DNA from: an uncultured bacterium
GTDB taxonomy: Bacteria; Hydrothermota; Tepidihabitantia; SM23-42
DNA: 64,000 bases
Assembly: GCA_965603515.1 (NCBI GenBank)
Contig: CBFDDH010000005.1
Location: 27,886-91,885 of the forward strand
Reading direction: 5' to 3'
Below the pieces are notes generated by a model that saw nothing but the letters and a program-made list of their open reading frames with translations, had not been told where the DNA came from and searched no databases. The position numbers and the translations under genes were made by a program. Positions 15,858 to 41,714 of this stretch are shown here, piece after piece (position 1 is the stretch's first letter; each line of letters begins with the position of its first letter).

Positions 15858-18335
15858 CTATTGCTTCTGCTTAAGCTTTTCCAGTTTTTGTTTTTTCTTC
15901 TCTTCTTCTTCGGTTAAAACCTTGATCGTATGTTCGATCTCCTCTTTGGTAACCTTTTTTCGTAATTCTTCGACATCCTGCATGGTTTTCTGGAATCTCT
16001 TGCCTTCTGCCGCGCTGATCCATTCAAGCAACAACCTTTCTGGACGTATCCCCAATTTTTCCAATTTATCCCAGAGCTTCTCTACCCTCTTCTGGGTCCA
16101 GCGGTTAGCATCGATGTAGTGACAGTCAACATAATGACACCCAGATACAACAACCATGGGCGCACCGTTTCTAAATGCACTGAGGATGAATTCTTCATGG
16201 ACCCGTCCGCTGCACATCGTGCGGATGAGTCGCTGGTTGGATGGATACTGTAATCGGGCTCCACCACATGTATCAGCACCTGCATATGAACACCAGTTGC
16301 AAGCAAAAACGATCACCTTATCCTGTGGGTCTTCAGTCAGATGTGCATCGATCTGGGTTATGATTTGATCGTCTGTAAAATGTTTCATCGAAAGTGCACC
16401 AAAACGACATTCAGCTGCACACGTGCCGCAGCCTTTGCATAAAGCTTCAACATAGGTGATCGTTTTATTCTTCGGATCGACCGTGAAAGCATTATAAGGA
16501 CAAACTTTCGAGCACATAGCACAGTATCGGCAGAGATCCTGATTCAAGGTTGATGTTATCGCCTCGAGTTTGACCTTACCTGCAGAAAGCAATGTTTCAG
16601 CCCGTGCTGCCGCTGCACTCGCCTGAGTAACCGAATCCTTCACATCCTTGGGCGCTTCAGCACAACCGGCAAAGTACACTCCAGTCGTAGTTGCATCAAC
16701 AGGTTTTAGTTTCGGATGTGCCTCCATAAAGAAACCGTCCGGGCTCTTGGATAGCGTAAGGAGTTTCTGCACCTCGGGCATATCAAGTCTTGGTGTCACG
16801 CCAACAGAAAGTACCATCATATCAAATTCATGTTCTTCGATTTTATTGGCCGTGGTATCCTCAACCATAACCTTTAAATCGTGTGTCTTTGGATCCTCAA
16901 TTATATCACCAGGGATACCTCTGATATATGCAACACCGGCTTCCTTGCTGCGTTTGAAAAGATCTTCAAAACCTTTACCAAATGCTCTAATATCGATGTA
17001 AAAAACTTTGGCTTCAATGTCAGGATAGTGGTCTTTCAGTAATAATGTGTCCTTGATCGTGTTCATACAACAGATATTACTGCAGTATGGTTTGCCGATC
17101 TTCTCGCACCGGGATCCGACACATTGAATAAAACCAACGGTCTTGGGTCTTTTTCTATCGGTAGGTCTGATAAAATGGCCGTCTGAAGGTCCACCTGCTG
17201 ACATAAGCCGTTCATATTCCATGCTTGTTATGACGTTTTCGTATTTTGTATAACCGTATTCATCTAATTCTGTAGGATCATACACATCCATACCAGTAGC
17301 AACGATTACCGTACCTACATCAAATTTAATAACCTCATCTTTCATGTCGTAGTCAATACATTTCTTGTCACATTTCTCAGCACATTTACCGCAGGCGATC
17401 GGATTTATGCCAAGACAGGATTCCATATCAATGATTGAAGCAGAGGGTATGGCCTGAGGGAACGGGATATAAATCGCCTTGCGACATGAGAGTCCCTGTT
17501 GATACTCGTCAGGGATGATCACCGGACAGACTTCAGCACAATCACCACATGCTGTACATTCTTCTGCGTTTACATAACGGGCTTTCTTGAGCACATTAAC
17601 ATGGAAATTCCCCACGTAACCCGAGATAGATTCTACCTGGCTATGTGTTAAGAGTGTTATGTTGGGATGTCGACCGACATCCATCATTTTCGGACCGAGT
17701 ATTCATATCGCACAATCCATAGTAGGATAGGTCTTTGCCAGCTGAGCCATTATACCACCGAGAGCTGGGTTTTTCTCAACCAGATATACTTTGTAACCAG
17801 CATCAGCAAGATCAAGACTTGATTGCATACCAGATATGCCACCACCGATAACGAGCGTTGCTTTAGTCACTGGTATTTCTGTCTCATCCTGAGCTTCGAG
17901 ATAACGAGCTCGAGCAATATAAGCTTTCATAATATCTTTTGCTTTCTTTGTCGCGGCTCCACGATCGTCCATATGAACCCAAGAACATTGTTCACGGATA
18001 TTCGCCATATCAACGAGATAAGGGTTAAGACCTACTGAAGAAACACACTCCCGAAATGTCGGCTCATGCATACGTGGCGAACATGCAGCAACAATAACAC
18101 GGTTGAGTTTTTGTTCTTTGATCGCCTTTTTTATCTCTGCTTGCCCAGGTTCAGCACACATATATCGGTTCTTTGCCGTGTATACGACATTACCGATTTC
18201 TTTAGCATCCTCGACGAGTTTGTCGACATCGACTGAACCAGCTATATTCGTACCACATTCGCACACAAAAACACCAATCCTTAAATCATCCTGCGGCACT
18301 TTAATCACCTCCTTTGTGGATAAGGTTATCCTCAA
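15858..18335 (-). CDS. hdrA: HdrA (heterodisulfide-reductase subunit A family flavoprotein) with a C-terminal MvhD domain. Selenoprotein: the in-frame TGA at 17703-17705 is read as Sec. The ORF track splits it into 17703..18335 and 15858..17687.
   Basis: Across the TGA the protein reads ...[26 protein letters not shown]. This aligns to the canonical HdrA ...[25 protein letters not shown], where Sec takes the place of the second Cys. N-terminal CxCGxNI 4Cys domain. GGGISGMQSSLDLADAG FAD motif. Multiple CxxCxxCxxxCP ferredoxin motifs. C-terminal MvhD (FACNWCSYAGAD...VVSGCHYVDCHY). Confidence 0.8.
17665..17682 (-). promoter_or_regulatory. SECIS-like hairpin in the mRNA: GGAUGUC-GGUC-GACAUCC (7-bp stem, GGUC loop), 20 nt downstream of UGA 17705..17703
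   Basis: Perfect stem. The GGUC apical loop resembles the SelB-binding loop of the E. coli fdhF SECIS. The identical 18-nt sequence occurs after the second in-frame UGA, at 25630-25647. Confidence 0.55.
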
Positions 18336-18338
18336 TCT

Positions 18339-19223
18339 TCATACTTTCACACTTCCATTTATCTTCTCCAATACTTTGTCTGCTTTTATTCGATGGGTAT
18401 GCAGACCAACCTGCTCGACAGTCAAACCCTGTGCAAGACCGAGCAGCTGGAAAAGATAAATAACCGGAATATTATAGCTCTTTCCCTTTTTACGGGATAT
18501 CATTATTTGACCTAAATCAAATGAAGAAAAACATGTCGGGCAGATCAAACCCATACAATCAGCACCACTTTTCTCGATCGATGCAAAGATCGCTTCAGTC
18601 ATTTCCAAGGGCAGTTCATCATCCATACATCCTTTTCCGCAACATAATACTTTTTCATGATGTTCAAGCGGGATTGCACCCATGGCAGTTATAAAGTCTT
18701 CAAGTATATCCGGGTAATCAGCATCATCAACATGCATAACCTGACTCGGTTTTAATATGTGACAACCATAATGAATCGCCACGGTAATTTCTTCAAGGGA
18801 TTTTTTTATTGATTTCTTTACTGCTTCGAGACCAAGATCATCTCTTATCATCTCAACGGCATGCTTTATTATTATCTTACCTTTATATTCCCGATTAATT
18901 CTCTTCAATCGTTTATTCACCTCATCTTTCAATGCTGGGTCTTCATTAAGGAGAAATTGTGCTTCTTTCAGAGTTGAGATACACCCGGAGCACATCGTAA
19001 TCAGCATATGTCCAGTCTCTTCAGCTACCGCTAAATTTCGAGTGGCCGTTACCAACCATTTCATCTTATCACGTGACTTGAAGTAAATAGGATCGGGGCA
19101 ACATGTAAAATTTTCAATATCAACAAGCTCAACACCTAATAGCGGTAAAGTGTTTCTCAGTGCCAATTCCATTTGAGGGTATTTGAGAGGCATCATACAA
19201 CCCCAGAAAGGCACGACCTTCAT
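18339..19223 (-). CDS. hdrB: HdrB-like subunit (two CCG cysteine-rich domains)
   Basis: 294 aa. CCPD...C and LCCGKGC / CPTC motifs typical of HdrB CCG domains. Confidence 0.75.
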   Translation of the reverse strand: MKVVPFWGCMMPLKYPQMELALRNTLPLLGVELVDIENFTCCPDPIYFKSRDKMKWLVTATRNLAVAEETGHMLITMCSGCISTLKEAQFLLNEDPALKDEVNKRLKRINREYKGKIIIKHAVEMIRDDLGLEAVKKSIKKSLEEITVAIHYGCHILKPSQVMHVDDADYPDILEDFITAMGAIPLEHHEKVLCCGKGCMDDELPLEMTEAIFASIEKSGADCMGLICPTCFSSFDLGQIMISRKKGKSYNIPVIYLFQLLGLAQGLTVEQVGLHTHRIKADKVLEKINGSVKV

Positions 19224-19273: not shown

Positions 19274-19795
19274 TTATTTATCGATCGTTTCATCGGCTGG
19301 TGTTACTTCTTTATCTTCAAGGATTGTATTTAACTCATCGATCGGGATCGTCTTCAGTACTGGAAGCCCTAATTGCTCTCTTCTTCTGTTGATTGCTGAA
19401 GATACTGTCACACTCATGCCGGTTTTCGCAATATTATCTGAAAGCTTGGCCAAGTTGACAGGTGCAGTTCCTTTTTCTACGGCCATGTTCTTGAGGGCAA
19501 CAATCACCTCAATAGGACGCACGTCCTGCGGGCATCTTTCATAACAGGAATAGCAATTCGTACAGAGCCATATCGCTGAATCCTGACCCAGGAGTTCTTC
19601 TTCCATACCCAACAATGCCTTTAATAATATTTTTCGCGGGTTGAACTCTTTTGAAAACCTTGCGGTTGGACAGACTGCAACACAGGCACTACATTGATAG
19701 CAATAGTTATGATGCTTTCCGCCGGATACCTTATTTAGCTTTTCGCGAAATCGGTAATTTACTACTATTTTATCTTTTGCCATTTTAGCCACCAT
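19274..19795 (-). CDS. hdrC: HdrC-like 4Fe-4S dicluster subunit
   Basis: 173 aa. CYQCSACVAVCP and CTNCYSCYERCP. Confidence 0.75.
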   Translation of the reverse strand: MVAKMAKDKIVVNYRFREKLNKVSGGKHHNYCYQCSACVAVCPTARFSKEFNPRKILLKALLGMEEELLGQDSAIWLCTNCYSCYERCPQDVRPIEVIVALKNMAVEKGTAPVNLAKLSDNIAKTGMSVTVSSAINRRREQLGLPVLKTIPIDELNTILEDKEVTPADETIDK

Positions 19796-20927
19796 CTAAC
19801 AAATCTGCAATAAGCGTAACCAATTGGATGGTTTCAATCTTCACATCCTCACCTACTTTATCATCCTTCATCGCACAATTAAAGTGAATCTCACATTTTG
19901 GGCAAGCCAGCACCAAAAGGTCTGCTCCAGTCTGTTTTGCCTCTTTCAAACGTGCAAGTTGTATACTCTTCGAATATGTAGAACAGTTAATCCATGCACT
20001 GACACCACAACATATTGCACTCTTTCTGCTTCTTGCCATTTCTTTCAATTCCAATTGTGGAACCGAAGTAATGGCTTTTCTTGGTTCATCATAAATACCA
20101 AGATGCCTTCCAAGTCTGCAGGGATCCTGATAAGAAACGGTTTTGGCGAGTTCCTTAAGTTTTATTTTTCCTTGATCGATCGCTTCAGCTATGACTTCAG
20201 TAATATGTTGCACTTCAAAATTGCATTCAAAATATTTGGGATAATCAATTTTGAATGTCCGATATCCCTCAGGACACGAAAAAATAATCTTTTTTACCCC
20301 TACTTTATTGATTTCATTAATATTGTATTGCGCCAGTCTTTTGAAATTATCCAGTTCTCCACCCCATAAGAGATCATGTCCACAACAGCGTTCATTGGGT
20401 AACACTACTGGTGTGATACCTAAATGATTGAGAATTTTTATGCTGGCTTTGGCAGCTTTTATTGTATTGATCTCGATATCTTTAAAAAGGACATCAAAAT
20501 AAGGCAAGCATCCAACGAAATATAGTGTCTCACCTGATCCGGCAACCTTCAAATCATTATCGATCCAATCCATGCGTTTCTGTTGAAGATCTGGTGTCGA
20601 CATAATACGCATCAATGATTGTGCAGCACCACCATGCGAACAGATCGCTTCTTCACCGATTTTCTGTGCTTCCTGACGGGTAGCAAGGGTCAGATCGATA
20701 TAGTCGATATTGGCCGGACATCTTTCATCACAGAGTTTGCATGTCAAACAAGCCCAGATATTCTTGTCCTTTAATAACTCAAGCTGACCACTACGAATTG
20801 CTTTATTAACTAATATGCGTGGCGAATAGCCATGATTAAATCGTGATATTGGACATGAACCCGTACATTTACCGCATTCAAGACATAAATAAGCTCTGGA
20901 TTCTTTTATCGCCTTTTTAATACTCAC
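19785..20927 (-). CDS. HdrD-like fused iron-sulfur (HdrC-type) + two-CCG-domain (HdrB-type) protein
   Basis: 380 aa. CLECGKCTGSCP and CLTCKLCDERCP, followed by CCGHD... and CCG-type motifs (ICCGVSAW, CPKCEIHFNC). Confidence 0.7.
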   Translation of the reverse strand: MSIKKAIKESRAYLCLECGKCTGSCPISRFNHGYSPRILVNKAIRSGQLELLKDKNIWACLTCKLCDERCPANIDYIDLTLATRQEAQKIGEEAICSHGGAAQSLMRIMSTPDLQQKRMDWIDNDLKVAGSGETLYFVGCLPYFDVLFKDIEINTIKAAKASIKILNHLGITPVVLPNERCCGHDLLWGGELDNFKRLAQYNINEINKVGVKKIIFSCPEGYRTFKIDYPKYFECNFEVQHITEVIAEAIDQGKIKLKELAKTVSYQDPCRLGRHLGIYDEPRKAITSVPQLELKEMARSRKSAICCGVSAWINCSTYSKSIQLARLKEAKQTGADLLVLACPKCEIHFNCAMKDDKVGEDVKIETIQLVTLIADLLDGG

Positions 20928-21385
20928 TTTACATCCTCAACCTGATTATCTGATACTTTAATGACCTTCTTAATGGAACTCGGACCAAGTTTTCTGATCG
21001 TCGCGGTGAATGCTTGAGCAACCTTGGCAAACTTTGTGGCTTCGGCCGATGAAATCCAATCAAGCATGAGTCTTTCTTTTTCAATACCGATCATCGCAGT
21101 AAGTTGCTCAGTGATCTTGTGAACATCAGCTGCCTTTTTTGCACCAAACATATAATGACAATCTTCAAAATGGCATGTGGCAACCAAAACACCATCAGCA
21201 CCCAATTCAAATGCCTTCAAAACCAACCCCGGGGTCACTCTGCCACCGCACATAACCCGCACAATGCGGATATTTGTAGGATATTGAAGTCGCGAAACAC
21301 CCGCACCATCGGCAGCTGGATAAGAACACCAATTGCAGCAGAATGCGACTATCTTTGGCTCAAAATTCTCCTTTGGTAAATCCAT
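20924..21385 (-). CDS. mvhD: Stand-alone MvhD (methyl-viologen-reducing hydrogenase delta subunit-like) [2Fe-2S] electron-transfer protein
   Basis: 153 aa. FCCNWCSYPAADGAG...RVMCGGRV...VATCHFEDCHY. Confidence 0.8.
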   Translation of the reverse strand: MDLPKENFEPKIVAFCCNWCSYPAADGAGVSRLQYPTNIRIVRVMCGGRVTPGLVLKAFELGADGVLVATCHFEDCHYMFGAKKAADVHKITEQLTAMIGIEKERLMLDWISSAEATKFAKVAQAFTATIRKLGPSSIKKVIKVSDNQVEDVK

Positions 21386-21431: not shown

Positions 21432-24400
21432 TTAACCAAATAATGCTTCCAGCTGTGCTTCGATTTGTTCGCTCATGAAATGTTTCAAGTCAATTGCACC
21501 GGTCGGGCAAGCAGGTACGCAAGTTCCACAACCTTTACACAGTGCTTCATTGACCTGGGCGACAAAAATACCTTTTTCTTTTTCAATAAGTTCAATTGCA
21601 TGGAATTCACAGACTTCTGCACACCGACCACAACCGCGGCAATAGACCTCATCAACGATCGATGTTATCGGTGCCAGACTTATTTTATCACGGCTCAGCA
21701 GTCCAGACACTTTCGATGCAACTGCGGATGCCTGAGATATTGAATCCCCAATGTCTTGCGGGAATTGACAACAACCACATAAAAACACTCCTTCAACTGT
21801 AGTTTCAACCGGACCGAATTTCGAATGACGTTCCAGGAAGAATTTATCTGGACCCCTTGGTACTTTTAATAACTCAGAAAGGCGCAAAGAATCCTCAGCA
21901 GGAACCATGCCTACGGAAAGCACAATGAGGTCGACTGGCACACTGATCTCAGCATTGAGGTCCACTGACGAAACCGTTATCTGGTTAGCCATATCAGTAC
22001 CGGAAATCTCCGGTTCATCCTCATACGGTAAAAAGAGCACACCTAATTCCCGTGCTTTCCGATACATCCGTTCGGCACCTTTTGAATAAACCCTGACGCC
22101 GCGGTTTAATATCGCGACATCAATGCCTTTTTCTTTAAGATATATCGCCTCTTTTATTGCGGCTTGACAACAGTATCGAGAACATCCTGGATTACCAGCA
22201 TCCCCTCTCGACCCAACGCACTGTACAAAGGCAACTGATTTGATATTCTTAATATCACCCTTCAGGATCTTCTCTTCCAATTCCATATTGGTTATCACAT
22301 TCTTATATCGACTATAACCATATCTTTGGGCTGGATCGTAAAGACTAGCCCCAGTAGCTAAAACAATAGCACCTACTGTAAATTCGGTTTCTTTTCCTTT
22401 AATGTTCAGTTTTACCTGAAAATTCCCAACATAACCAGTGACATCTGTCAGCTCTGCAGAAATTAAGAATTCGCCACCTGCTTTGGTGAATTCATCGATC
22501 AATTTAGTGATAATGTCTTTACCCGGCTTGAAACTTGGATAAATACTCGATAAATCACGCACCAAACCGCCGGGAGCTTCATTCTTCTCAATGATCTTAA
22601 CCTTAAAGCCACGCAAAAGCAGGTCAAGTCCACACCTTAACCCGGTTATGCCACCACCGATTATTGCAACATCCCGGTTAACTGACAGTTCTTTCAAGTA
22701 GAGCGGTTTGAGTTCTCTGACACGCGCGACTGACATTCTTACCAATTCCTTGGCCTTGGCAGTTGCTTTTTTAGGTTCTTTCTGGTGCACCCACGAACAT
22801 TGATTTCTAATATTCGCGATATCGAAAAGGTAAGGATTTAGACCAATCATAGTCAACGAATCCTGAAAACTCGGTTCATGTGTTTTAGGCGTACAGGCAG
22901 CGACCACGACTCTATTGAGTTTGTTTTCGGCGATACGCTCCTGCAGCTTACGTTGGTCAGTTTCTGAACAGGCGAAAGTATAATCTTCCGCAAAAACCAC
23001 CCCCGGCAAAGTCTTGGCATATTCTACTACTGACTTCACATCAACGACCTTTGAAATATTGGGTCCACAATGGCAGACAAAGACACCGACTCTTGGCGGT
23101 CCGGAAATATCGACTTGTTCGATATCTGGCTCTTCAATCTCCAGTTCTTGTCCTTTGAGAAAAAGCGATGCTTTAACCGCTGCTCCGCTGGCTTCAGCGA
23201 TCGAGTCAGTAATGTCTTTGGGCCCGGTTGCACATCCGCAGACCAAAATTCCTTGTTTCGTGGATTCCAGAGGTTTAATTGCTGGCTCTGCATTCTTGAA
23301 AAAGCCATCTTGGTCAGTTTCAACACCAAGCACATCGGCCAGTTCCTGGCAACCATTGGGTGGGATCAAAGCTGAAGCTAAACAGACAGCGTCAAAAACC
23401 ATTTTTGATGAGTATCCCTGGTCGTCCTCATAATGAATGATCAAATCACCATTTTCATCTTCAATGACCTTGGATGGCTTTCCTTTAATATATTTCACGC
23501 CTTTTTCTACTGAACGATTATAGAATTCTTCAAAACCCTTACCAAATGCCCTTATATCAATATAGAACACAGTGATTTCAATATCTGGATAGTGTTCTTT
23601 CAATACCAGACTGTCTTTTATCGTATTCATACAGCATATGCGACTACAATAATTAATATCCCGGCGCATATTACGTGAACCAACACATTGAATAAATGCA
23701 AAACGGATAGGTCCTTTTCTTTCTTTGTCAAGAGCAAGTTCACCATTAGTTGGACCATCTTCACTCATTATTCTTTCCAGCTCAAAAGAGGTATAGATAT
23801 TTTTGAAACGTTTATAACCATATTCACTCGCTTCTTTAGGATCGAGATAATCGATTCCCGTCGTCACAACGATCGAGCCAATATCAAGATCAATGAATTC
23901 ATCTTCCATGTCATGAACAATAGCTTGAGGCTCACAGGCCTTTACACACTCCAAGCACTCAGCACACCCTGCGCAGTTGAGACAGCGGTCAGCTTCTTTT
24001 TTTGCTTGTAGTGCAGAAAATCCCAGCGAGACTTCATCAAAACTCTTTTTGGACTTTTCCAGATCAAGAACTGGCATTTTTTTCCGAGCGGTTGTCTCGA
24101 GACCATCCGGTATATCGATGTCTTCATCCACAACGCGCGCCGGTTTTTTCTCTCTTCCTTCTTTAAGATCAACTCCTCTAATGAATCTATCTATTGATTC
24201 AGCAGCTTCTTTCCCCGCTGCAATTGCCTCGATTACGGTTGCTGGTCCGGTCACAACATCACCACCAGCAAAAACGCCAGCAATAGTTGTTTGCAGTGTA
24301 TCTGGGTCAACTTTGAATGTTCCCCAGCGTGTTAACTCAAATTGATTTTCCTTGTTTAGAAATGAAACATCGACAGCTTGACCAATTGCCATAATAACCA

Positions 24401-25835
24401 TATCAAGATCTATGGTGAATTCAGAACCTTCAATTGGTACCGGTCTTCTTCTTCCCGAGGCATCTGGTTCACCAAGTTGCATCTTTACACACTCTATCCC
24501 GGTAACCTTGCCATCTTCACCAAAAACCTTGGTTGGCGCCGCCAAGAAATGGATTTTAATCCCTTCCTTCTCAGCTTCCAGCACTTCTTCTTCATTAGCC
24601 GGCATCTCTCGCTGTGACCGGCGATATACAATAAAAACTTCTTCTGCACCTAAACGCAAAGCAGTACGGGCAGCATCAATCGCGGAATCCCCACCGCCAA
24701 TCACAGCAACTTTTTTACCAACCGTGGTCTTATCGTCCATAATCGTTTTTTTAAGAAACTCGACACAGAATTCCACCCCCTTTAAATCCTCACCTTCGAT
24801 CCCCATGGATTTTTCCTTTGCAGCGCCTACGCCAAGGAAGATTGCCTTAAAATCTTGATCGAAGATATCTTGAATTCCGAAATCTTTACCAAGCGCAATA
24901 CCGGTTTTAATCTCAACACCCCAGCTCTTTATATAATCTAAATCGCGTTTAAGGGATTTTTCAGGTAACCTGAATCTGGGGATTGCCCAGTATAGGAGTC
25001 CTCCAGGATGATCAGTGGCTTCATAGACGGTTGAGCAGTACCCTTGTTTAGCAAGAAAATAGGCAGCCGACAAGCCAGCAGGTCCAGCACCAATAATGGC
25101 GATTTTTTCTTTGGTCAATTTTGGCATTGCCGCTGGTTCATTATCTACTGGTTCTTGGTCAGCAATGAAACGTTTTAACTGTGCTATTGCTAAAGGTTCA
25201 TCAATATCTTTACGTTTACACTCTGATTCACAAGGGTGAGTGCATACTCTTCCGCAAACTGATGGAAAGGGATTGTCACGTCTTTCTAAATCCAATGCTT
25301 CCTGTGATTTACCTTGAGATATAAGAGCAACATAGCCCTGCACATTAACCCCAGCCGGACAAGCATACCGGCACGGTGACCATCCTTTTTTATCAATAAT
25401 GAATTTATTCGGAACGGCTTGCGGATACTGACGGTATATTGCCTCATGCTTCGACAAATCCAGTTCAAACTCGTTGTCGAGTTTCACTGGACAAACTGAA
25501 GGACATTCACCACAGCCAGTACACTTATTCCAGTCAACATAAGTGGATTTGTGTTTGATCTTCACTTTAAAATTTGGAGCTTCCCCGTCGACTTGAACCA
25601 CTTCGCTGTTTGTGAAAAGTTCAATGTTCGGATGTCGACCGACATCCATTAACCGAGGACCGAGGATTCAACCAGTGCAATCCATCGAGGTGAAGATCTT
25701 ATGGATTTGTGAAGTCCGACCGCCAAGACATGGACCATGCTCAATAAGATAAACCTTAAAATCAGCATGTGCCAAATCCAAAGCTGATTGGATACCAGCC
25801 ACCCCTCCACCGATTACTAATGCTCCTTTTTGCAT
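21432..25835 (-). CDS. HdrL-like giant flavoprotein: HdrA N-terminal FAD module (with Sec), an NfnB/GltD-like NAD(P)H:ferredoxin module, a second HdrA-like module, and ferredoxin domains. The ORF track starts it at 25649, after the Sec codon.
   Basis: Real start is ATG at complement 25835..25833: [56 protein letters not shown](TGA 25670..25668)[14 protein letters not shown]. GltD-like CRYACPAG...[13 protein letters not shown] plus [19 protein letters not shown] and [16 protein letters not shown] Rossmann folds. Second HdrA core [19 protein letters not shown]...[12 protein letters not shown]-terminal 2x[4Fe-4S]. Confidence 0.75.
25630..25647 (-). promoter_or_regulatory. SECIS-like hairpin GGAUGUC-GGUC-GACAUCC, 20 nt downstream of UGA 25670..25668
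   Basis: Identical at nucleotide level to the hairpin at 17665-17682, with the same spacing from the UGA. Confidence 0.55.
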
Positions 25836-25866
25836 TATTTTTATCTATTCCTTTCTTAGATTAAAA

Positions 25867-26424
25867 TTATTGTGGATCCTTTTGTTTTTTTAGAAGTTCA
25901 AGACCAAAATTATAGCCGTGTTTAAAAGCCTTTATGTTTAAATCCAGAGCTTTTTCAGGAACTGAGCCAGGCAAAGCCTTTTCCATGGCTTCGCATGTCA
26001 CTATCCCGGTTATCGCAGTGAAGAACCCCAACATAACAACATTAGCCACAATTTTCTTGCCGAGCTGTTCAGCAAAACGCGTTGCCGGAATAAGATGGAC
26101 CTTAATATTCCCCCGGGGTGACTTGTGCTTCACTAAATTTTCGTCAACGAGTAATATACCGTTTTCTTTGAGTTCCGGTTCGAACTTATCATAACCCTCC
26201 TGGGACATGACAACCAAAACATCAGAATTAGTGACATATGGATATAGTACTTTGGTTTCTGATACCACGAGCTGAGAGCTGCAAGCACCACCCCTTGCTT
26301 CCGGGCCAAAGGATTGACTCATTGTACCATATTTGTTATCATAAAGCGAAGCTGCCTTACCGACAATTATCCCGGATCTTATAATACCTTGACCACCGTA
26401 ACCGGCGAATCTAATCTCCGCCAT
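25867..26424 (-). CDS. 2-oxoacid:ferredoxin oxidoreductase gamma subunit
   Basis: Likely start MAEIRFAGYGGQGIIRSGIIVGKAA (GGAGG 5 nt upstream), not the longer track ORF. Gamma/PorC-like fold. Confidence 0.7.
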   Translation of the reverse strand: MAEIRFAGYGGQGIIRSGIIVGKAASLYDNKYGTMSQSFGPEARGGACSSQLVVSETKVLYPYVTNSDVLVVMSQEGYDKFEPELKENGILLVDENLVKHKSPRGNIKVHLIPATRFAEQLGKKIVANVVMLGFFTAITGIVTCEAMEKALPGSVPEKALDLNIKAFKHGYNFGLELLKKQKDPQ

Positions 26425-27196
26425 TTTTGCCTCCGGGATCCGCTCCTGATCTGATTCCATGTGGGGTGAATTTCTCTCCCAACACACTGCTGAGCTGAGC
26501 ATTATATTGGTCGATAAATGTTGGTCTTTCTTTGCTTGTGAATTTGCCCACGATAATTTTGCTATCCGGTTTGATCCCCACATTCTTCGGGTCTTCACTA
26601 TTCCTTATCTCCGAGTTATCATAGTAAAAACGTACCAGATCAATATTCACCTTGCTAATACTGGTATAATAGTCAGGGCCTGGCGCCAGAATTTCAATAA
26701 CTGACAGACCTTTTTTGCCCAATGCCTCGGCAATCGAAGCGGCGAGTTCCTCAGTATGCAAAGCTGTCCAACGTGCGGTATATATTGCACTGCACGAGTT
26801 TCCAAGATGTGGGATATTGAATGGTTCTTCAAAGGTTGAATAGGGTGAGAATTTCTGAGCCGCAGAGGGTACTGATTTACCGGCGATTTTTCTGTACACA
26901 AAATTATTAATACATATCACCGTAAGTTCCATATTTCTTCGACTGCCATGCACAAAGTGATTGCCACCGATCGTCATAAGGTCACCTGCGAAGGGGACAA
27001 CTTTGAGAGCAGGGTTGGCTAATTTTAGACCAGTTCCAAAAGCAATGGCTCGACCGCGTGTCGTATGGAAATAATCAAAACCGAACCGTTTGACTGTCTC
27101 TGGTTCAAACAAAATGTCTGAAGGCACACAAACCTGGTCAGGTTTCACCCCAGCCTTTTCAAGGGCTTGGGCAAATGTCGTGATTATTTCATTCAT
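26411..27196 (-). CDS. 2-oxoacid:ferredoxin oxidoreductase beta subunit (TPP-binding), copy 2
   Basis: GDLMTIGGNHFVHGSRRN (TPP Mg-binding GDG-like). 261 aa. Confidence 0.8.
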   Translation of the reverse strand: MNEIITTFAQALEKAGVKPDQVCVPSDILFEPETVKRFGFDYFHTTRGRAIAFGTGLKLANPALKVVPFAGDLMTIGGNHFVHGSRRNMELTVICINNFVYRKIAGKSVPSAAQKFSPYSTFEEPFNIPHLGNSCSAIYTARWTALHTEELAASIAEALGKKGLSVIEILAPGPDYYTSISKVNIDLVRFYYDNSEIRNSEDPKNVGIKPDSKIIVGKFTSKERPTFIDQYNAQLSSVLGEKFTPHGIRSGADPGGKNGGD

Positions 27197-28434
27197 TCCT
27201 TTGATTTGGGACCTCCTCCGAAGACTGATATCTCCAATCTTGTTTTGAATTCAATGACCTCTTCGATTTTTCGCTCTTCCTTCGCTACTGATACAATTGC
27301 ATCACATATGTCATCCGGGATATGAACACCAGCACCACCATGCGGGACGAGCACAACATTTGCATTACCGTGACAGCACCTTGCAACATCAAAAACAACC
27401 TGTCCGTAATTGATCTCAGGAACTACAAGCGCCTTTACTTTCTTGGCTATTTCAGTGATCCGTTCATCGGGGAATGGCCAGACAGTAACGAGTCTTAGAC
27501 TACCAACTTTTATCCCTCTTTCTCTCGCCATTTCGATACCGCGTACTGCAACCCTCGATGAGATACCATAAGATACGACGACTACATCTGCATCATCAAT
27601 CTGTTCTTCTTTTAACTCAATGATTTTGTCTTTATTGCACTTTATTTTATCTACTAATCTTCTCACATACTTCAGTTTATAATGCTCATCGTCAACTGGG
27701 TAACCGCGTTCATCATGGAGCCTTCCGGAAATGTATAGCTTGTGACCTGATCCGGCCTTAACCATTCTTGGGACAAGGTCTTCATCCGGTTTGAATGGCA
27801 GGTACTCATCAGGTGGACCTGTATACCACCGCCTTGGTTCAATCTCGATTTCTTCAGCTGGCGGGATAACGACTTTCTCGGTCATATGACCAACGCATTC
27901 ATCAGACATTATCATAACTGGACAACGATATTTTTCTGCCAGATTAAAGGCCTTTATTGTGTAATCAAACAGTTCCTGAGGAGATTCCGGCGCTATGACG
28001 ATGAGCCCATAATCACCGTGTGAGCCCCAACGCGCCTGCATCATATCTGCTTGCCCGGTCTTAGTTGGAACCCCAGTTGAAGGACCACCGCGCTGGATAT
28101 TAAGCAGTACAAACGGCGTCTCAAGCATTGCCCCAAATCCGACCGTCTCCATCATCAAGGAATAACCAGGTCCAGATGTTATGGTCATCGTCTTCGCGCC
28201 TGCCCATGCCCCGCCGACGATTGCTGATACTGAAGCAAGTTCATCTTCCATTTGAATGAACAAGGCACCGTTTTTTGGGGCGATACGCGCAAAAGCCTCA
28301 GCCGCTTCAGTTGATGGTGTAATCGGATAACCGGCGACGAACTTACACCCCGCAGCAAGCGCCCCATAACCAGAGGCAACATCACCATCAATGTAGTAGA
28401 CGCCGCTGAGCACATCTCTTTGATCAGCCTTCAC
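27193..28434 (-). CDS. 2-oxoacid:ferredoxin oxidoreductase alpha subunit, copy 2
   Basis: 413 aa. YPITPSTE, GGPSTGVPTKTGQADMMQARWGSHGD motifs of KorA/PorA. Confidence 0.85.
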   Translation of the reverse strand: MKADQRDVLSGVYYIDGDVASGYGALAAGCKFVAGYPITPSTEAAEAFARIAPKNGALFIQMEDELASVSAIVGGAWAGAKTMTITSGPGYSLMMETVGFGAMLETPFVLLNIQRGGPSTGVPTKTGQADMMQARWGSHGDYGLIVIAPESPQELFDYTIKAFNLAEKYRCPVMIMSDECVGHMTEKVVIPPAEEIEIEPRRWYTGPPDEYLPFKPDEDLVPRMVKAGSGHKLYISGRLHDERGYPVDDEHYKLKYVRRLVDKIKCNKDKIIELKEEQIDDADVVVVSYGISSRVAVRGIEMARERGIKVGSLRLVTVWPFPDERITEIAKKVKALVVPEINYGQVVFDVARCCHGNANVVLVPHGGAGVHIPDDICDAIVSVAKEERKIEEVIEFKTRLEISVFGGGPKSKE

Positions 28435-28526
28435 CCGTCAGACCTCCTTTCAACCATCTTTCAATATAACGCTTACCTATTCCAAACGTTAAATGTTTTT
28501 TCTCTGTACCGCTATCTTCATAAGGT

Positions 28527-29420
28527 CTAACCGGGTTCATTTTCACCATCCTTGATCTCGGATAACCACTCGTTATAGCGATCTGTATAACTCGGTCTTT
28601 CTCGGTCGACGAACTTACCCATTATAATCTTTCCCTGTAAAGCTATATCAAGATTCTTGGTATCCTCATCATGACGTATTTCCGTATTATCATGGTAGAA
28701 ACGCATCATATCAAGGCCATCCCCTAATCGGTTGATCCTTGAGTAATATTGGGCACATGGCGATATAGCTTCAACTACAGAAAATCCTTTTTTATTGAGT
28801 GCTTCAACAAAAGAATTCATAAGCCGACGGACATGAAGCGTGGTCCAACGCGCCACATACACAGCACCTGAAGATTCTGCCAAATATGGTATATTAAAAG
28901 GCGGCTCAACACACCCAAAAGGACAGGTTGTGGCATACGCAGTGAGCGGTGTTGTCGGAGCAACCTGACCACCAGTCATCGCGTAGATGAAGTTGTTTAC
29001 GCATATGACGAGCATATCGATATTTCTTCGCGCTGCATGGATAAAATGATTTCCACCGATCGCAATAAGATCACCATCGCCAGAGAAAACCACGACTTTC
29101 ATGTCCGGGTTGGCAACTTTAATACCCGTAGCAAAAGCGATCGCCCGCCCATGAGTAGTGTGGAATGAATCGAGCTTCACATACCCGGCAACCCTGCCTG
29201 TACAACCAATACCAGAAACAATAGCTACCTTATTAAGATCTATCTCGGCTTTTTCAAGCGCCGCTGCAAACGCAGTAACTGCTAAACCAATTCCACAACC
29301 CGGGCACCAAATATGTGGTATCCTGTCCATGCGAAGCACATTTTCCATCGGATGGATTATGTCCATACCTGATCGACCAGATTGGGTCTCCTCTTGCTGC
29401 ATTGTTTTTGGTATTTCCAT
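28527..29420 (-). CDS. 2-oxoacid:ferredoxin oxidoreductase beta subunit, copy 1
   Basis: 297 aa. WCPGCG, GDGDLIAIGGNHFIHAARRN. Confidence 0.8.
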   Translation of the reverse strand: MEIPKTMQQEETQSGRSGMDIIHPMENVLRMDRIPHIWCPGCGIGLAVTAFAAALEKAEIDLNKVAIVSGIGCTGRVAGYVKLDSFHTTHGRAIAFATGIKVANPDMKVVVFSGDGDLIAIGGNHFIHAARRNIDMLVICVNNFIYAMTGGQVAPTTPLTAYATTCPFGCVEPPFNIPYLAESSGAVYVARWTTLHVRRLMNSFVEALNKKGFSVVEAISPCAQYYSRINRLGDGLDMMRFYHDNTEIRHDEDTKNLDIALQGKIIMGKFVDRERPSYTDRYNEWLSEIKDGENEPG

Positions 29421-29431
29421 TCTACACTCCC

Positions 29432-30649
29432 TTATCTAAGCTCAACGATCCGGTCTATGATTCTATCATCTTGGACCGCTTGATTTATCGCCCTGAGGAT
29501 ATCCTCGGTGTCTTCAACACCTTTTCCACCATGTGGGATGAAGAACACATTTGATTTACCATAACTACACCGTTCGACTTCCAGAACAACCTGTCCGAAA
29601 TTCATTTCTGGCACGACAAATGCATTAACTTTCCCGGCGAGTTCGGCTACGCGCTTCCCGGGAAATGGCCACACCGTTACCAATTTTAGACTTCCAACCT
29701 TTAACCCTAAACCCCTTGCTTGTTCCATCGCTTTCAATGCAGCCCTTGATGATACTCCATATGAAACAATAACAATATCAGCGTCTTCAATATTGGCTTC
29801 CTGCACTTCAATAATTTCATCCGTATAATCCCGTATTTTCTTTACCAGTGGATGCACATTGTACTCCTGGCATTCTTCATTCATGATCGGATAGCCACGA
29901 TCATCATGGGTCAAACCAGTCACGTGGAATTTATACCCCTGACCTATATCAACCATGCGTGGGATTAAATCTTCATCTCTTTTAAATGGCAAATAACTAC
30001 CTTTCGGACCATCGAAATATCGGCGCGGTTCAAGTGTGATGTCTTCCGCGCGCGGAATCACCACCTCTTCCTGCAAATGGGCGACGTATTCGTCGGACAT
30101 CACAGCCACGGGGATACGAAAGCGTTCTGAAAAATTAAATGCTTTTATTGTAAAATCAAACATCTCCTGTGAAGAACTCGGCGCAAGCGCAATCAACTCA
30201 TAATCGCCATGTGAACCCCAGCGTGCCTGCATCATATCTCCTTGAGACGGCTGGCTGGGCAACCCAAGACCCGGACCGACCCTTTGAACATCAACGATTA
30301 CACAGGGTGTCTCCAGCATTATGCCAAGCCCGAGATGTTCCATCATCAGTGATAATCCAGGGCCAGAAGTCACGGTCATTGATTTCTTACCAGTCCATGA
30401 AGCGCCGATAACTGCCGCGAGGCTTGAAATCTCATCCTCCATCTGAATAAAGGTTGCGCCCGCCTTTTTCGCTCGTTGAAGAAACCTTTCACTGACCTCC
30501 AGTGCTGGGGCAATAGGATAAACCCCTAAAAACCGACATCCTGCGGCCAATGCGCCTTCTGCACAAGCACAATTGCCGCTAAGATTATATGTACCAGTCA
30601 AAACACCACTTGGATCTGCCTTCACCCCGTTTGACCTCCTTTTAACCAT
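29432..30649 (-). CDS. 2-oxoacid:ferredoxin oxidoreductase alpha subunit, copy 1
   Basis: 405 aa. YPIAPALE, VGPGLGLPSQPSQGDMMQARWGSHGD. Confidence 0.85.
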   Translation of the reverse strand: MVKRRSNGVKADPSGVLTGTYNLSGNCACAEGALAAGCRFLGVYPIAPALEVSERFLQRAKKAGATFIQMEDEISSLAAVIGASWTGKKSMTVTSGPGLSLMMEHLGLGIMLETPCVIVDVQRVGPGLGLPSQPSQGDMMQARWGSHGDYELIALAPSSSQEMFDFTIKAFNFSERFRIPVAVMSDEYVAHLQEEVVIPRAEDITLEPRRYFDGPKGSYLPFKRDEDLIPRMVDIGQGYKFHVTGLTHDDRGYPIMNEECQEYNVHPLVKKIRDYTDEIIEVQEANIEDADIVIVSYGVSSRAALKAMEQARGLGLKVGSLKLVTVWPFPGKRVAELAGKVNAFVVPEMNFGQVVLEVERCSYGKSNVFFIPHGGKGVEDTEDILRAINQAVQDDRIIDRIVELR

Positions 30650-41705: not shown

Positions 41706-41714
41706 GAGGCGATC

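What the first reader, a model, noticed from the sequence alone, without database searches (positions are those of the whole stretch)
25625..25840. Second selenocysteine codon, and the true start of a ~1460-aa HdrL-like fusion flavoprotein
The track ORF (21432..25649) lacks the FAD-binding N-terminus. Extending upstream through TGA 25668-25670 to ATG 25835-25833 adds [22 protein letters not shown]...MDCTG-U-ILGPRL. The full protein strings together an HdrA FAD domain, a GltD/NfnB-like NAD(P)H module with two Rossmann folds, and a second HdrA-like module with ferredoxin domains. This architecture matches the HdrL proteins of sulfate reducers and syntrophs, some of which are known selenoproteins.
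Basis: partly seen in the sequence, partly recalled or inferred. Interest (0 to 1): 0.75.

Follow-up and report, generated by a model that had tools for sequence, protein, structure and literature searches.

The report
Selenocysteine-containing HdrL-type flavoprotein, mis-annotated as truncated
The in-frame TGA is almost certainly a selenocysteine codon in a 1467-residue HdrL-type redox enzyme of a WOR-3 bacterium; this is a known kind of selenoprotein at its usual site, and public annotations cut it into two pieces.

Summary

- **Reading frame:** on the minus strand, ATG 25835-25833 opens a frame that passes TGA 25670-25668 and ends at 21432 (1467 codons).
- **Conservation:** all 29 related genes examined keep the TGA. 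This covers WOR-3/Stahlbacteria orthologs of 52-94% identity, two further metagenome contigs and the window's HdrA-MvhD paralog. The ATG lies exactly 55 codons upstream in all 16 loci checked, and those codons are under purifying selection.
- **Cys pairing:** 75 more distant homologs, including 14 with the same architecture, have TGT or TGC at this position.
- **SECIS:** an invariant 7-bp hairpin with a GGUC loop starts 20 nt after the UGA and meets all four published bacterial SECIS criteria. It is absent from every Cys-type gene. Its codons show the lowest synonymous diversity of the whole gene.
- **Site:** the residue aligns with Cys197 of crystallised HdrA. This is the canonical HdrA Sec position and a ligand of the partner's N-terminal [4Fe-4S] cluster.
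- **Architecture:** two complementary HdrA modules are fused, with an NfnB/GltD unit inserted in the first. The gene is followed by mvhD, hdrD-like, hdrC, hdrB and a second Sec-containing hdrA-mvhD.
- **Not tested:** the Sec machinery (selA, selB, selC, selD).

It is a new member of a known kind.

The parts
21432..25835 (-). Full hdrL-like coding sequence: 1467 codons plus stop, read through one UGA (Sec56).
   Evidence: Translation. Pfam domains. Eleven full-length orthologs of 1463-1467 codons with the same frame structure.
25833..25835 (-). True start codon (ATG).
   Evidence: It is the first start codon after the upstream in-frame stop. All 16 related loci have ATG exactly 55 codons before the TGA.
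25671..25832 (-). Codons 2-55: the FAD-binding beta-alpha-beta motif (GGGVAG) and the start of the DCTG-U motif. Public annotation misses them or calls them a separate 55-aa ORF.
   Evidence: Pfam FAD_oxidored matches residues 6-42. Synonymous differences far exceed non-synonymous ones. Separate 55-aa ORFs with FAD-binding Pfam hits are called on other contigs.
25668..25670 (-). UGA selenocysteine codon (residue 56), equivalent to Cys197 of HdrA.
   Evidence: TGA in 29/29 Sec-type genes and TGT/TGC in 75 Cys-type homologs. Ungapped alignment to 5odc_A places residue 56 opposite residue 197.
25630..25647 (-). Bacterial SECIS hairpin GGAUGUC-GGUC-GACAUCC. The stem starts 20 nt after the UGA and the loop (25640-25637) starts 27 nt after it. 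It encodes (M)DVGRHP.
   Evidence: Folding (-9.4 kcal/mol for the hairpin alone). Invariant in 29/29 Sec-type genes apart from one A/G change that keeps pairing (U-A to U-G), and absent in 75/75 Cys-type genes. Lowest synonymous diversity of 627 five-codon windows in the gene.
24000..25382 (-). NfnB/GltD-like unit (residues about 152-612): Fer4_20 iron-sulfur domain plus FAD and NAD(P)H Rossmann folds, inserted within the inserted-ferredoxin domain of HdrA module 1.
   Evidence: Pfam Fer4_20 at 154-228 and Pyr_redox_2 at 244-541. PDB sequence matches to NfnB 4ylf_B (E 6e-107) and NfnI 5jca_L. Flanking ferredoxin Cys motifs at residues 105-115 and 618-634.
23121..23999 (-). Second half of HdrA module 1 (residues about 613-905): the rest of the inserted ferredoxin and the thioredoxin-reductase-like FAD domain, with cluster Cys 717/730/734/735, Lys740 and Glu687.
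   Evidence: Alignment to HdrA structures 8rvv_A and 5odc_A, chain residues 290-573. Invariant columns.
21435..23093 (-). HdrA module 2 (residues about 915-1467): N-terminal [4Fe-4S] domain (VFVCHCG...), FAD domain without Cys197 and without inserted ferredoxin, and C-terminal 2x[4Fe-4S] ferredoxin.
   Evidence: Alignment to 5odc_A residues 3-237 and 318-650, skipping 238-317, with no Cys opposite C194 or C197. Same pattern in 19 homologs.
20924..21385 (-). mvhD (FlpD) gene directly downstream.
   Evidence: Pfam FlpD, E 2.8e-48.
19785..20927 (-). hdrD-like gene (ferredoxin plus two CCG domains).
   Evidence: Pfam Fer4_8 and CCG.
19274..19795 (-). hdrC-like gene.
   Evidence: Pfam Fer4_8 / Fer4_9.
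18339..19223 (-). hdrB-like gene (CCG domains).
   Evidence: Pfam CCG x2.
15858..18335 (-). Second selenoprotein gene of the cluster: hdrA-mvhD fusion with UGA at 17705-17703 and the identical hairpin at 17682-17665. The start at TTG 18335 is provisional.
   Evidence: Translation. Pfam FlpD and Fer4. TGA and hairpin conserved in 8 related loci.
25867..28434 (-). 2-oxoacid:ferredoxin oxidoreductase alpha, beta and gamma genes directly upstream. They are a likely source or sink of ferredoxin electrons.
   Evidence: Pfam POR_N, TPP_enzyme_C and POR. The same upstream neighbour occurs in L079 and L015.

Best explanation
The region is the 5' end of a single 1467-residue selenoprotein gene of a WOR-3/Stahlbacteria bacterium.

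**Recoding.** Translation starts at ATG 25835. UGA 25670-25668 is read as selenocysteine (Sec56). The inferred mechanism is that the hairpin GGAUGUC-GGUC-GACAUCC, 20 nt downstream, recruits SelB carrying Sec-tRNA(Sec).

**Protein.** It is an HdrL-type enzyme built from two HdrA (heterodisulfide reductase subunit A) modules fused in one chain.
- Module 1 lacks the N-terminal iron-sulfur domain and the C-terminal ferredoxin. It keeps the Cys197 position, here Sec. It carries an NfnB/GltD-like NAD(P)H-FAD unit inside its inserted ferredoxin domain.
- Module 2 has the N-terminal [4Fe-4S] domain and the C-terminal ferredoxin. It lacks Cys197 and the inserted ferredoxin.

**Inferred mechanism.** By analogy with the HdrA crystal structure, Sec56 supplies the fourth ligand of module 2's N-terminal [4Fe-4S] cluster. 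The chain would therefore act as its own heterodimer partner, with the selenium sitting on the low-potential electron branch. Together with MvhD, the HdrD-like protein, HdrC, HdrB and a Sec-containing HdrA-MvhD encoded downstream, the enzyme would couple NAD(P)H, ferredoxin and an unidentified disulfide by flavin-based electron bifurcation or confurcation. The ferredoxin could come from the 2-oxoacid:ferredoxin oxidoreductase encoded upstream.

**Shown versus inferred.** Shown: the frame, the conservation, the Cys/Sec pairing, the hairpin and its synonymous-site constraint, the domain map and the gene order. Inferred: actual Sec insertion, the ligand role of Sec, the substrates and the direction of electron flow.
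For: - **Frame and start:**
- **TGA conserved:** 29/29 Sec-type genes, from many independent assemblies at 52-94% protein identity, including the paralog HdrA-MvhD.
- **Cys in relatives:** TGT or TGC in 75 homologs. Cys in 14 full-length homologs of the same architecture.
- **Upstream codons translated:** the 55 upstream codons are under purifying selection and match FAD-binding Pfam models.
- **TGA is otherwise a stop:** 14 of 46 long ORFs end in TGA.
- **Hairpin fits the bSECIS model (PMC13188914):** 4-nt loop, 7-bp stem, G in the first two loop positions, 27 nt spacing, and -9.4 to -10.9 kcal/mol.
- **Hairpin specific to Sec-type genes:** codons GAT-GTC-GGT-CGR-CAT are frozen in 29/29, while flanking Gly, Pro and Ile codons vary freely. 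This is the lowest synonymous diversity of 627 windows, and only 6% of comparable codons are single-codon. Cys-type genes with nearly the same peptide use varied codons and fold no better than -3.4 kcal/mol.
- **Site identity:** Sec56 corresponds to Cys197 of 5odc_A. That residue is a ligand of the partner's N-terminal cluster (PMC9012536) and the canonical HdrA Sec position (PMC4989117).
- **Module complementarity:**
- **Bifurcation residues:** the Lys409 and Glu356 equivalents are kept in both modules (K740/E687 and K1228/E1187; residues named in PMC12054007).
- **Gene cluster:**. It is conserved in relatives.
- **HdrL precedent:** PMC2702500 and PMC5947623.
Against: - No selA, selB, selD or tRNA-Sec was found in the window, in about 8-10 kb beyond either end, or in any held locus. 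The rest of the genome could not be searched.
- The hairpin never shows a compensatory double change. It is invariant, so covariation gives no support. The z-score of the 76-nt region against shuffles is unremarkable.
- No Rfam family matches it.
- Part of the hairpin's conservation could come from the conserved peptide GRHPN.
- The ligand role of Sec is by homology only. An older paper (PMC4989117, written before the structure) regarded this position as not cluster-coordinating.
- The physiological substrates are unknown.
Confidence: 0.9

Rival explanations
1. The TGA is a genuine stop, as in public annotation. Two products are made: a 55-residue peptide and a 1405-residue protein starting at Met63 (ATG 25649).
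For: Gene callers produce exactly this. P0121 is 100% identical at 1405 aa, and all hits of 53% identity or more cover only 96% of the query. Separate 55-aa ORFs are called on other contigs. Met63 is invariant in all Sec-type genes.
Against: The 1405-aa product would lack the GxGxxG FAD-binding motif that every HdrA needs, and the 55-aa piece is only that motif. The two pieces are always in the same frame, with no gap, in 29 genes. The stop aligns precisely with a conserved Cys. A SECIS-like hairpin under synonymous constraint follows it.
Confidence: 0.04
2. The UGA is decoded, but as an amino acid other than Sec. Examples are Cys inserted through mis-charged tRNA-Sec under selenium limitation, or a lineage-specific suppressor tRNA.
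For: The position is Cys in all non-Sec homologs, so Cys would be functional. The Sec machinery was not found in the sequence available.
Against: TGA ends 14 of 46 long ORFs in the window, so there is no general reassignment. The only two credible in-frame TGAs in 64 kb are both at the canonical HdrA Sec site, and each has the same SECIS-type hairpin. This is the signature of SelB-dependent recoding.
Confidence: 0.04
3. The TGA is a nonsense mutation or an assembly error, and the gene is a pseudogene.
For: None beyond the presence of a stop codon inside a reading frame.
Against: The same TGA occurs in 29 genes from many independent assemblies, with purifying selection on both sides.
Confidence: 0.01

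Closest known systems
HdrL of Desulfobacterium autotrophicum HRM2 (HdrL1-3; PMC2702500), and the HdrABC/HdrL and HdrAL/POR clusters of Syntrophobacter fumaroxidans (PMC5947623)
   Same: It is a large soluble fusion of HdrA with a glutamate-synthase/NfnB-like NAD(P)H unit, and mvhD lies directly downstream. hdrB and hdrC plus a further hdrA are in the same cluster, and a 2-oxoacid/pyruvate:ferredoxin oxidoreductase lies next to it. Two of the three D. autotrophicum HdrL proteins are selenoproteins.
   Different: The host is a WOR-3/Stahlbacteria bacterium, not a sulfate reducer. No dsr genes are nearby. No direct sequence alignment with the named HdrL proteins could be made here. The position of Sec in D. 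autotrophicum HdrL was not checked.
Canonical HdrA selenoprotein (Methanococcales, Deltaproteobacteria, Clostridia; PMC1794560, PMC4989117); structure 5ODC
   Same: Sec lies at the canonical position (about 200, Cys197 of 5ODC) in the motif DCxxU/C-IL-PK. The thioredoxin-reductase-like FAD fold is the same, as are the cluster Cys and the Lys409/Glu356 equivalents.
   Different: The chain holds two HdrA modules and an NfnB/GltD insertion. The Sec-bearing module has no N-terminal domain, so Sec would act within the chain rather than between two identical subunits. The SECIS is bacterial and lies inside the coding region.
Fused ('type II') and GltD/NfnB-inserted ('type III') HdrA of ANME and methanogenic archaea (HdrA3/4 and HdrA9-11 in PMC9012536; classes in PMC12054007)
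   Same: The Cys197 position and the N-terminal domain are distributed in a complementary way between two fused HdrA modules. An NfnB-like unit of about 460-500 residues interrupts the inserted ferredoxin domain.
   Different: Both features occur together in one 1467-residue chain, whereas the archaeal set reaches 1182 residues at most. The module order is reversed: here the Cys197/Sec module comes first and the module with the N-terminal domain second. The residue is Sec rather than Cys, and the host is bacterial.
NfnB / GltD (NADH-dependent ferredoxin:NADP oxidoreductase large subunit; 4YLF, 5JCA)
   Same: Residues 153-554 match over the full length (E 6e-107 to 8e-95), with the Fer4_20 iron-sulfur domain and both Rossmann folds.
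   Different: It is not a free subunit and no NfnA partner is nearby. It is embedded in an HdrA ferredoxin domain.

Membership tests
Bacterial selenoprotein gene (SelB/SECIS-dependent UGA recoding) | In-frame UGA that aligns with Cys in homologs (Cys/Sec pair). | tested here: met
   TGA in 29 Sec-type genes; TGT or TGC in 75 homologs. Cys in 14 full-length homologs of the same architecture.
Bacterial selenoprotein gene (SelB/SECIS-dependent UGA recoding) | Coding sequence conserved on both sides of the UGA, in one frame. | tested here: met
   ATG 55 codons upstream in 16/16 loci, with synonymous differences far exceeding non-synonymous ones. Eleven full-length orthologs align end to end.
Bacterial selenoprotein gene (SelB/SECIS-dependent UGA recoding) | bSECIS consensus (PMC13188914): 3-9 nt apical loop, 4-16 bp upper stem, G in the first two loop positions, 16-37 nt between UGA and loop, MFE of -7.5 kcal/mol or lower. 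| tested here: met
   Loop GGUC (4 nt), 7-bp stem, 27 nt spacing, -9.4 kcal/mol for the hairpin alone.
Bacterial selenoprotein gene (SelB/SECIS-dependent UGA recoding) | RNA-level selection on the SECIS, through covariation or synonymous-site constraint. | tested here: met
   There is no compensatory double change because the hairpin is invariant. Synonymous sites are frozen in 29/29 genes, giving the lowest diversity of 627 windows. The hairpin is absent in Cys-type genes that encode nearly the same peptide.
Bacterial selenoprotein gene (SelB/SECIS-dependent UGA recoding) | selA, selB, selC (tRNA-Sec) and selD present in the genome. | not testable with these tools
   None was found in the 64-kb window, its flanks or the held loci.
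Bacterial selenoprotein gene (SelB/SECIS-dependent UGA recoding) | Selenium shown in the polypeptide (75Se labelling or mass spectrometry). | not testable with these tools
   This is an experiment.
HdrA selenoprotein family | Sec at the canonical position (about residue 200; Cys197 of 5ODC). | tested here: met
   Ungapped phmmer alignment of query residues 4-150 to 5odc_A residues 145-291 places residue 56 opposite 197. The canonical position is stated in PMC4989117.
HdrA selenoprotein family | HdrA thioredoxin-reductase-like FAD domain with the C-x(n)-C-x3-CC cluster motif and the Lys409/Glu356 equivalents. | tested here: met
   Module 1 has C717/C730/C734/C735, K740 and E687. Module 2 has C1206/C1218/C1222/C1223, K1228 and E1187. 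These columns are invariant or nearly so in 20 sequences and align with 5odc_A and 8rvv_A.
HdrL (Strittmatter et al. 2009, PMC2702500) | HdrA fused with a glutamate-synthase-like NAD(P)H-binding unit in one polypeptide. | tested here: met
   Pfam Fer4_20 and Pyr_redox_2 lie between HdrA segments.
HdrL (Strittmatter et al. 2009, PMC2702500) | Gene directly followed by mvhD. | tested here: met
   FlpD gene at 21385-20924, 46 nt after the stop.
HdrL (Strittmatter et al. 2009, PMC2702500) | Sequence orthology with D. autotrophicum HdrL1-3 or S. fumaroxidans Sfum_0824. | not tested
   Those sequences were not among the listed hits and could not be fetched by name.
Fused complementary HdrA (type II; PMC9012536, PMC12054007) | Two thioredoxin-reductase domains, one with Cys197 but no N-terminal domain and the other with the N-terminal domain but no Cys197. 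| tested here: met
   The module order is the reverse of that described for ANME HdrA3/4.
GltD/NfnB-inserted HdrA (type III; HdrA9-11) | NfnB-like unit interrupts the inserted ferredoxin domain. | tested here: met
   The first CxxCxxCxxxC motif lies at residues 105-115, the insertion spans 152-612, and the second Cys motif lies at 618-634.

The most novel reading that the evidence does not exclude
In this clade (WOR-3, and probably Candidatus Eisenbacteria) selenium would be a direct ligand of a [4Fe-4S] cluster, not a redox-active selenol. The cluster would sit at the interface of an intramolecular HdrA pseudo-dimer. It would lie on the low-potential branch of a three-flavin enzyme, with two HdrA-type FADs and an NfnB-type FAD. 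That enzyme would link 2-oxoacid oxidation, NAD(P)H and an unknown disulfide in bacteria that neither make methane nor reduce sulfate. The clade-wide Cys-to-Sec change, with one frozen SECIS shared by two paralogs, would then mark selection to tune that cluster's potential.
Probability: 0.35. Interest if true: 0.55.

Novelty: new member of a known kind. Interest (0 to 1): 0.35.

Why it matters
- **Annotation:** every public copy of this gene found here is truncated to about 1400 residues or split into a 55-aa ORF plus a long ORF. Metabolic reconstructions of WOR-3 therefore work with an enzyme that appears to lack its FAD site.
- **Selenium use in WOR-3:** the two WOR-3 genome papers held in the library do not mention selenoproteins. 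Selenocysteine use by this phylum appears not to have been pointed out there.
- **Mechanism:** the site is the cysteine that bridges two HdrA subunits through an iron-sulfur cluster. The fused, complementary architecture makes the idea that Sec acts as a cluster ligand in electron bifurcation directly testable in a single polypeptide.
- **Caveat:** HdrA is a long-known selenoprotein family, and HdrL selenoproteins have been described since 2009.

Tried and rejected
- **Rfam:** gathering thresholds on the whole window, and a permissive E-value search on 25560-25700, found no SECIS family. The only hit was a chance match to the hairpin ribozyme.
- **tRNA-Sec:** ARAGORN found only tRNA-Ala in the window and nothing in 20 related loci.
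- **Sec machinery:**
  - NCBIfam or Pfam scans of 39 window ORFs besides the hdrL gene found no SelA, SelB or SelD.
  - Extending 8-10 kb beyond both window ends through other assemblies found nothing.
  - tblastn of E. coli SelA, SelB and SelD against all 1.06 Mb of held loci gave only one weak GTPase hit in a Chloroflexi locus.
- **Exact look-up:** the look-up of the 1405-aa ORF by DNA reference failed. The same sequence was later found as P0121.
- **Covariation:** the analysis is uninformative because the hairpin is invariant.
- **Candidate division TA06:** I first took its hit P0154 for a Sec-truncated gene. Its full-length cluster member P0254 (1619 aa) has Cys and an extra N-terminal domain, so TA06 was dropped from the Sec-type set.
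- **Structure prediction:** not attempted. The protein exceeds the 1200-residue limit, and no coordinates would be returned to measure the distance from residue 56 to the cluster.
- **Literature:** searches for selenocysteine use in WOR-3 found nothing relevant.
Full report
**Observation**

On the minus strand, ATG 25835-25833 is followed by 55 sense codons, then TGA 25670-25668. The same frame then continues to the stop at 21434-21432, giving 1467 codons. The ORF that a mechanical finder lists (21432..25649, 1405 aa) begins at Met63 and lacks the GxGxxG FAD-binding motif. Pfam FAD-binding models match residues 6-42, and one model (GIDA, 6-59) runs across the TGA. A scan of the whole window for in-frame TGAs joining long open stretches gave only two credible cases. 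One is this codon. The other is at 17705-17703 in an HdrA-MvhD fusion gene, in the same sequence motif. That second case is the 'first' Sec codon implied by the finding's title.

**Source and relatives**

A genome scan returned 78 loci. The closest, at 79-94% protein identity, are MAGs labelled Candidatus Stahlbacteria or candidate division WOR-3, including five complete chromosomes. The window therefore comes from a WOR-3 bacterium, not a sulfate reducer.

**Is the TGA decoded?**

- Every WOR-3-type relative has TGA at exactly this codon. That covers 16 loci for this gene and 8 loci for the HdrA-MvhD paralog. Three further genes on two other metagenome contigs also have it, one from a cluster whose members are named Candidatus Eisenbacteria.
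- Counting the two window genes, 29 of 29 Sec-type genes keep the TGA.
- All 75 more distant homologs in the same loci (Chloroflexota, Asgard and other archaea, Bacteroidota and others) have TGT or TGC there, in the motif FPTxDCxxC-IL-PK.
- Fourteen full-length proteins of the same two-module architecture (45-49% identity, 1455-1509 aa) have Cys at this column.
- In all 16 loci the ATG lies exactly 55 codons before the TGA. Synonymous codon differences there exceed non-synonymous ones, for example 24 against 7, or 28 against 13.
- TGA terminates 14 of the 46 long ORFs of the window, so the codon is not reassigned in general.

**SECIS**

Twenty nucleotides after the UGA lies the hairpin GGAUGUC-GGUC-GACAUCC (window 25647-25630). 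It has a 7-bp stem and a 4-nt loop that begins with GG, and the loop starts 27 nt after the UGA. Its energy is -9.4 kcal/mol for the hairpin alone and -10.7 kcal/mol for the consensus structure. All four criteria of the published bacterial SECIS model are met (PMC13188914).

- **Invariance:** the hairpin is identical in all 29 Sec-type genes except for one A/G change that turns a U-A pair into U-G.
- **Codon evidence:** the codons GAT-GTC-GGT-CGR-CAT are frozen, while the neighbouring Gly, Pro, Ile and Asn codons use three or four synonymous forms.
- **Gene-wide comparison:** among 11 full-length orthologs, only 6% of degenerate codons with an invariant amino acid use a single codon. The DVGRH window has the lowest synonymous diversity of 627 five-codon windows in the gene.
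- **Control:** none of the 75 Cys-type genes has the hairpin. Nine of them encode nearly the same peptide (DVARH and similar) yet use varied codons and fold no better than -3.4 kcal/mol.
- **Limits:** there are no compensatory double changes. The 76-nt region as a whole does not fold better than shuffles. Rfam has no matching family.

**What could not be checked**

No selA, selB, selD or tRNA-Sec lies in the window, in 8-10 kb beyond either end, or in any held locus.

**The protein**

Sequence matches to solved structures give the domain map.

| Residues | Matches | Content |
|---|---|---|
| 4-150 | 5odc_A HdrA 145-291, no gaps | First part of the FAD domain and first half of the inserted ferredoxin; Sec56 lies opposite Cys197 |
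| 153-554 | NfnB, NfnI large subunit, GltD (E down to 6e-107) | NAD(P)H-FAD unit with Fer4_20 iron-sulfur domain |
| 610-905 | HdrA 290-573 | Second half of the inserted ferredoxin and the rest of the FAD domain |
| 915-1467 | HdrA 3-237 and 318-650 | N-terminal [4Fe-4S] domain, FAD domain, C-terminal ferredoxin; skips the inserted ferredoxin; no Cys opposite C194 or C197 |

Module 1 therefore has Sec197 and the inserted ferredoxin, which carries the NfnB unit, but no N-terminal domain and no C-terminal ferredoxin. Module 2 has exactly the missing parts. Both modules keep the cluster motif C...C-x3-CC and the Lys409/Glu356 equivalents (K740/E687 and K1228/E1187; residues named in PMC12054007).

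**Meaning of the site**

[quoted passage not shown] Tandem or fused HdrA homologs show complementary loss of Cys197 and of the N-terminal domain (PMC9012536). Position about 200 is also the canonical Sec site of archaeal HdrA selenoproteins (PMC4989117).

The inference is that Sec56 of module 1 completes the cluster of module 2 within one chain, on the branch that leads to the inserted ferredoxin and here to the NfnB unit. This step is by homology and was not tested. The older paper, written before the structure was solved, did not regard this position as a cluster ligand.

**Context**

The gene order on the minus strand is as follows:

1. Two sets of 2-oxoacid:ferredoxin oxidoreductase genes
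2. hdrL-like (Sec)
3. mvhD
4. hdrD-like
5. hdrC
6. hdrB
7. hdrA-mvhD (Sec)
8. a ROK-family gene

The same order occurs in relatives. It resembles the HdrABC/HdrL and HdrAL/POR clusters of Syntrophobacter fumaroxidans (PMC5947623). It also matches the definition of HdrL in Desulfobacterium autotrophicum: an HdrA/glutamate-synthase fusion, always followed by mvhD, with HdrL1 and HdrL3 being selenoproteins (PMC2702500).

The likely function is NAD(P)H-linked flavin-based electron bifurcation or confurcation between ferredoxin and a disulfide. The substrates are unknown.

**Annotation status**

The identical protein is on record only as the 1405-aa truncation (P0121). All 33 clusters of 53% identity or more cover 96% of the query and are 1399-1432 aa long, apart from one that is cut further (1285 aa, 87% covered). 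Hits of 49% identity or less are of two kinds: same-architecture Cys-type proteins of 1455-1509 aa that cover 99-100% of the query, and longer proteins of about 1560-1690 aa that cover only 76-78%. On other contigs the first 55 codons are called as a separate gene. The two WOR-3 genome papers in the library mention hdrABC but no selenoproteins.

**Verdict**

This is a selenoprotein of a known family (HdrA/HdrL) with Sec at the family's canonical site, in a phylum where it had not been pointed out in the held literature, and it is systematically mis-annotated. It is a new member of a known kind. Interest is moderate to low for a specialist, with some added value from the fused complementary architecture that puts the Sec at an intramolecular cluster site.

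Noticed in passing
window 15858-18335 (-); TGA 17705-17703; hairpin 17682-17665: A second selenoprotein gene lies in the same cluster. It is a canonical HdrA with its N-terminal domain, fused to MvhD. It has UGA at the same motif (DCAI-U-ILGPKM) and the identical SECIS hairpin. Its start codon (TTG 18335) is provisional.
   Followed up: partly
L015 6016-9120; also L020, L022, L023, L038: WOR-3 relatives at about 61% identity have the same gene context, but the gene is only 1033-1045 codons long. It consists of two fused HdrA modules without the NfnB/GltD insertion, and still has TGA at codon 56 and the same hairpin. The insertion is therefore a lineage-specific addition to an already fused Sec-HdrA.
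   Followed up: partly
L086 2679-10257; L085 264-4745: One JGI contig carries two tandem Sec-type genes, each called as a 55-aa ORF plus a long ORF (960 and 1418 aa). A contig from a cluster with Candidatus Eisenbacteria names has the same TGA and hairpin. The Sec-type clade therefore probably extends beyond WOR-3.
   Followed up: partly
window 25647-25649 (Met63) and the equivalent codon in all Sec-type genes: Met63 (AUG) is invariant in all 29 Sec-type genes but is Val, Leu or Thr in Cys-type homologs. Only its G is in the 7-bp stem. The invariant A and U, together with the invariant AA after the stem, suggest that the functional SECIS is larger than the hairpin. This AUG is also what misleads gene callers.
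   Followed up: no
L012 and L071 (both from MAG CAYQPW01): The same MAG carries the Sec-type gene (90% identity) and, on another contig, a Cys-type homolog of 40% identity. A Sec/Cys back-up pair of the Methanococcus kind is possible, but the two are distant.
   Followed up: no
P0254 (candidate division TA06 cluster): The TA06 homolog is 1619 aa and Cys-type, and it keeps an N-terminal iron-sulfur domain on module 1 as well. It is not complementary in the way the WOR-3 protein is.
   Followed up: partly
window 25867-30649 (-): Two successive sets of 2-oxoacid:ferredoxin oxidoreductase genes (alpha/beta/gamma, then alpha/beta) lie directly upstream of the hdrL-like gene. Only 31 nt separate the gamma-subunit stop from the hdrL start, so co-transcription is likely.
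   Followed up: partly
window 8619-14294 (+), 40212-45509 (+): There is a 1891-aa ORF that was not annotated. There are also two large proteins with type IX secretion (T9SS) sorting tails, which fits an FCB-group bacterium.
   Followed up: no
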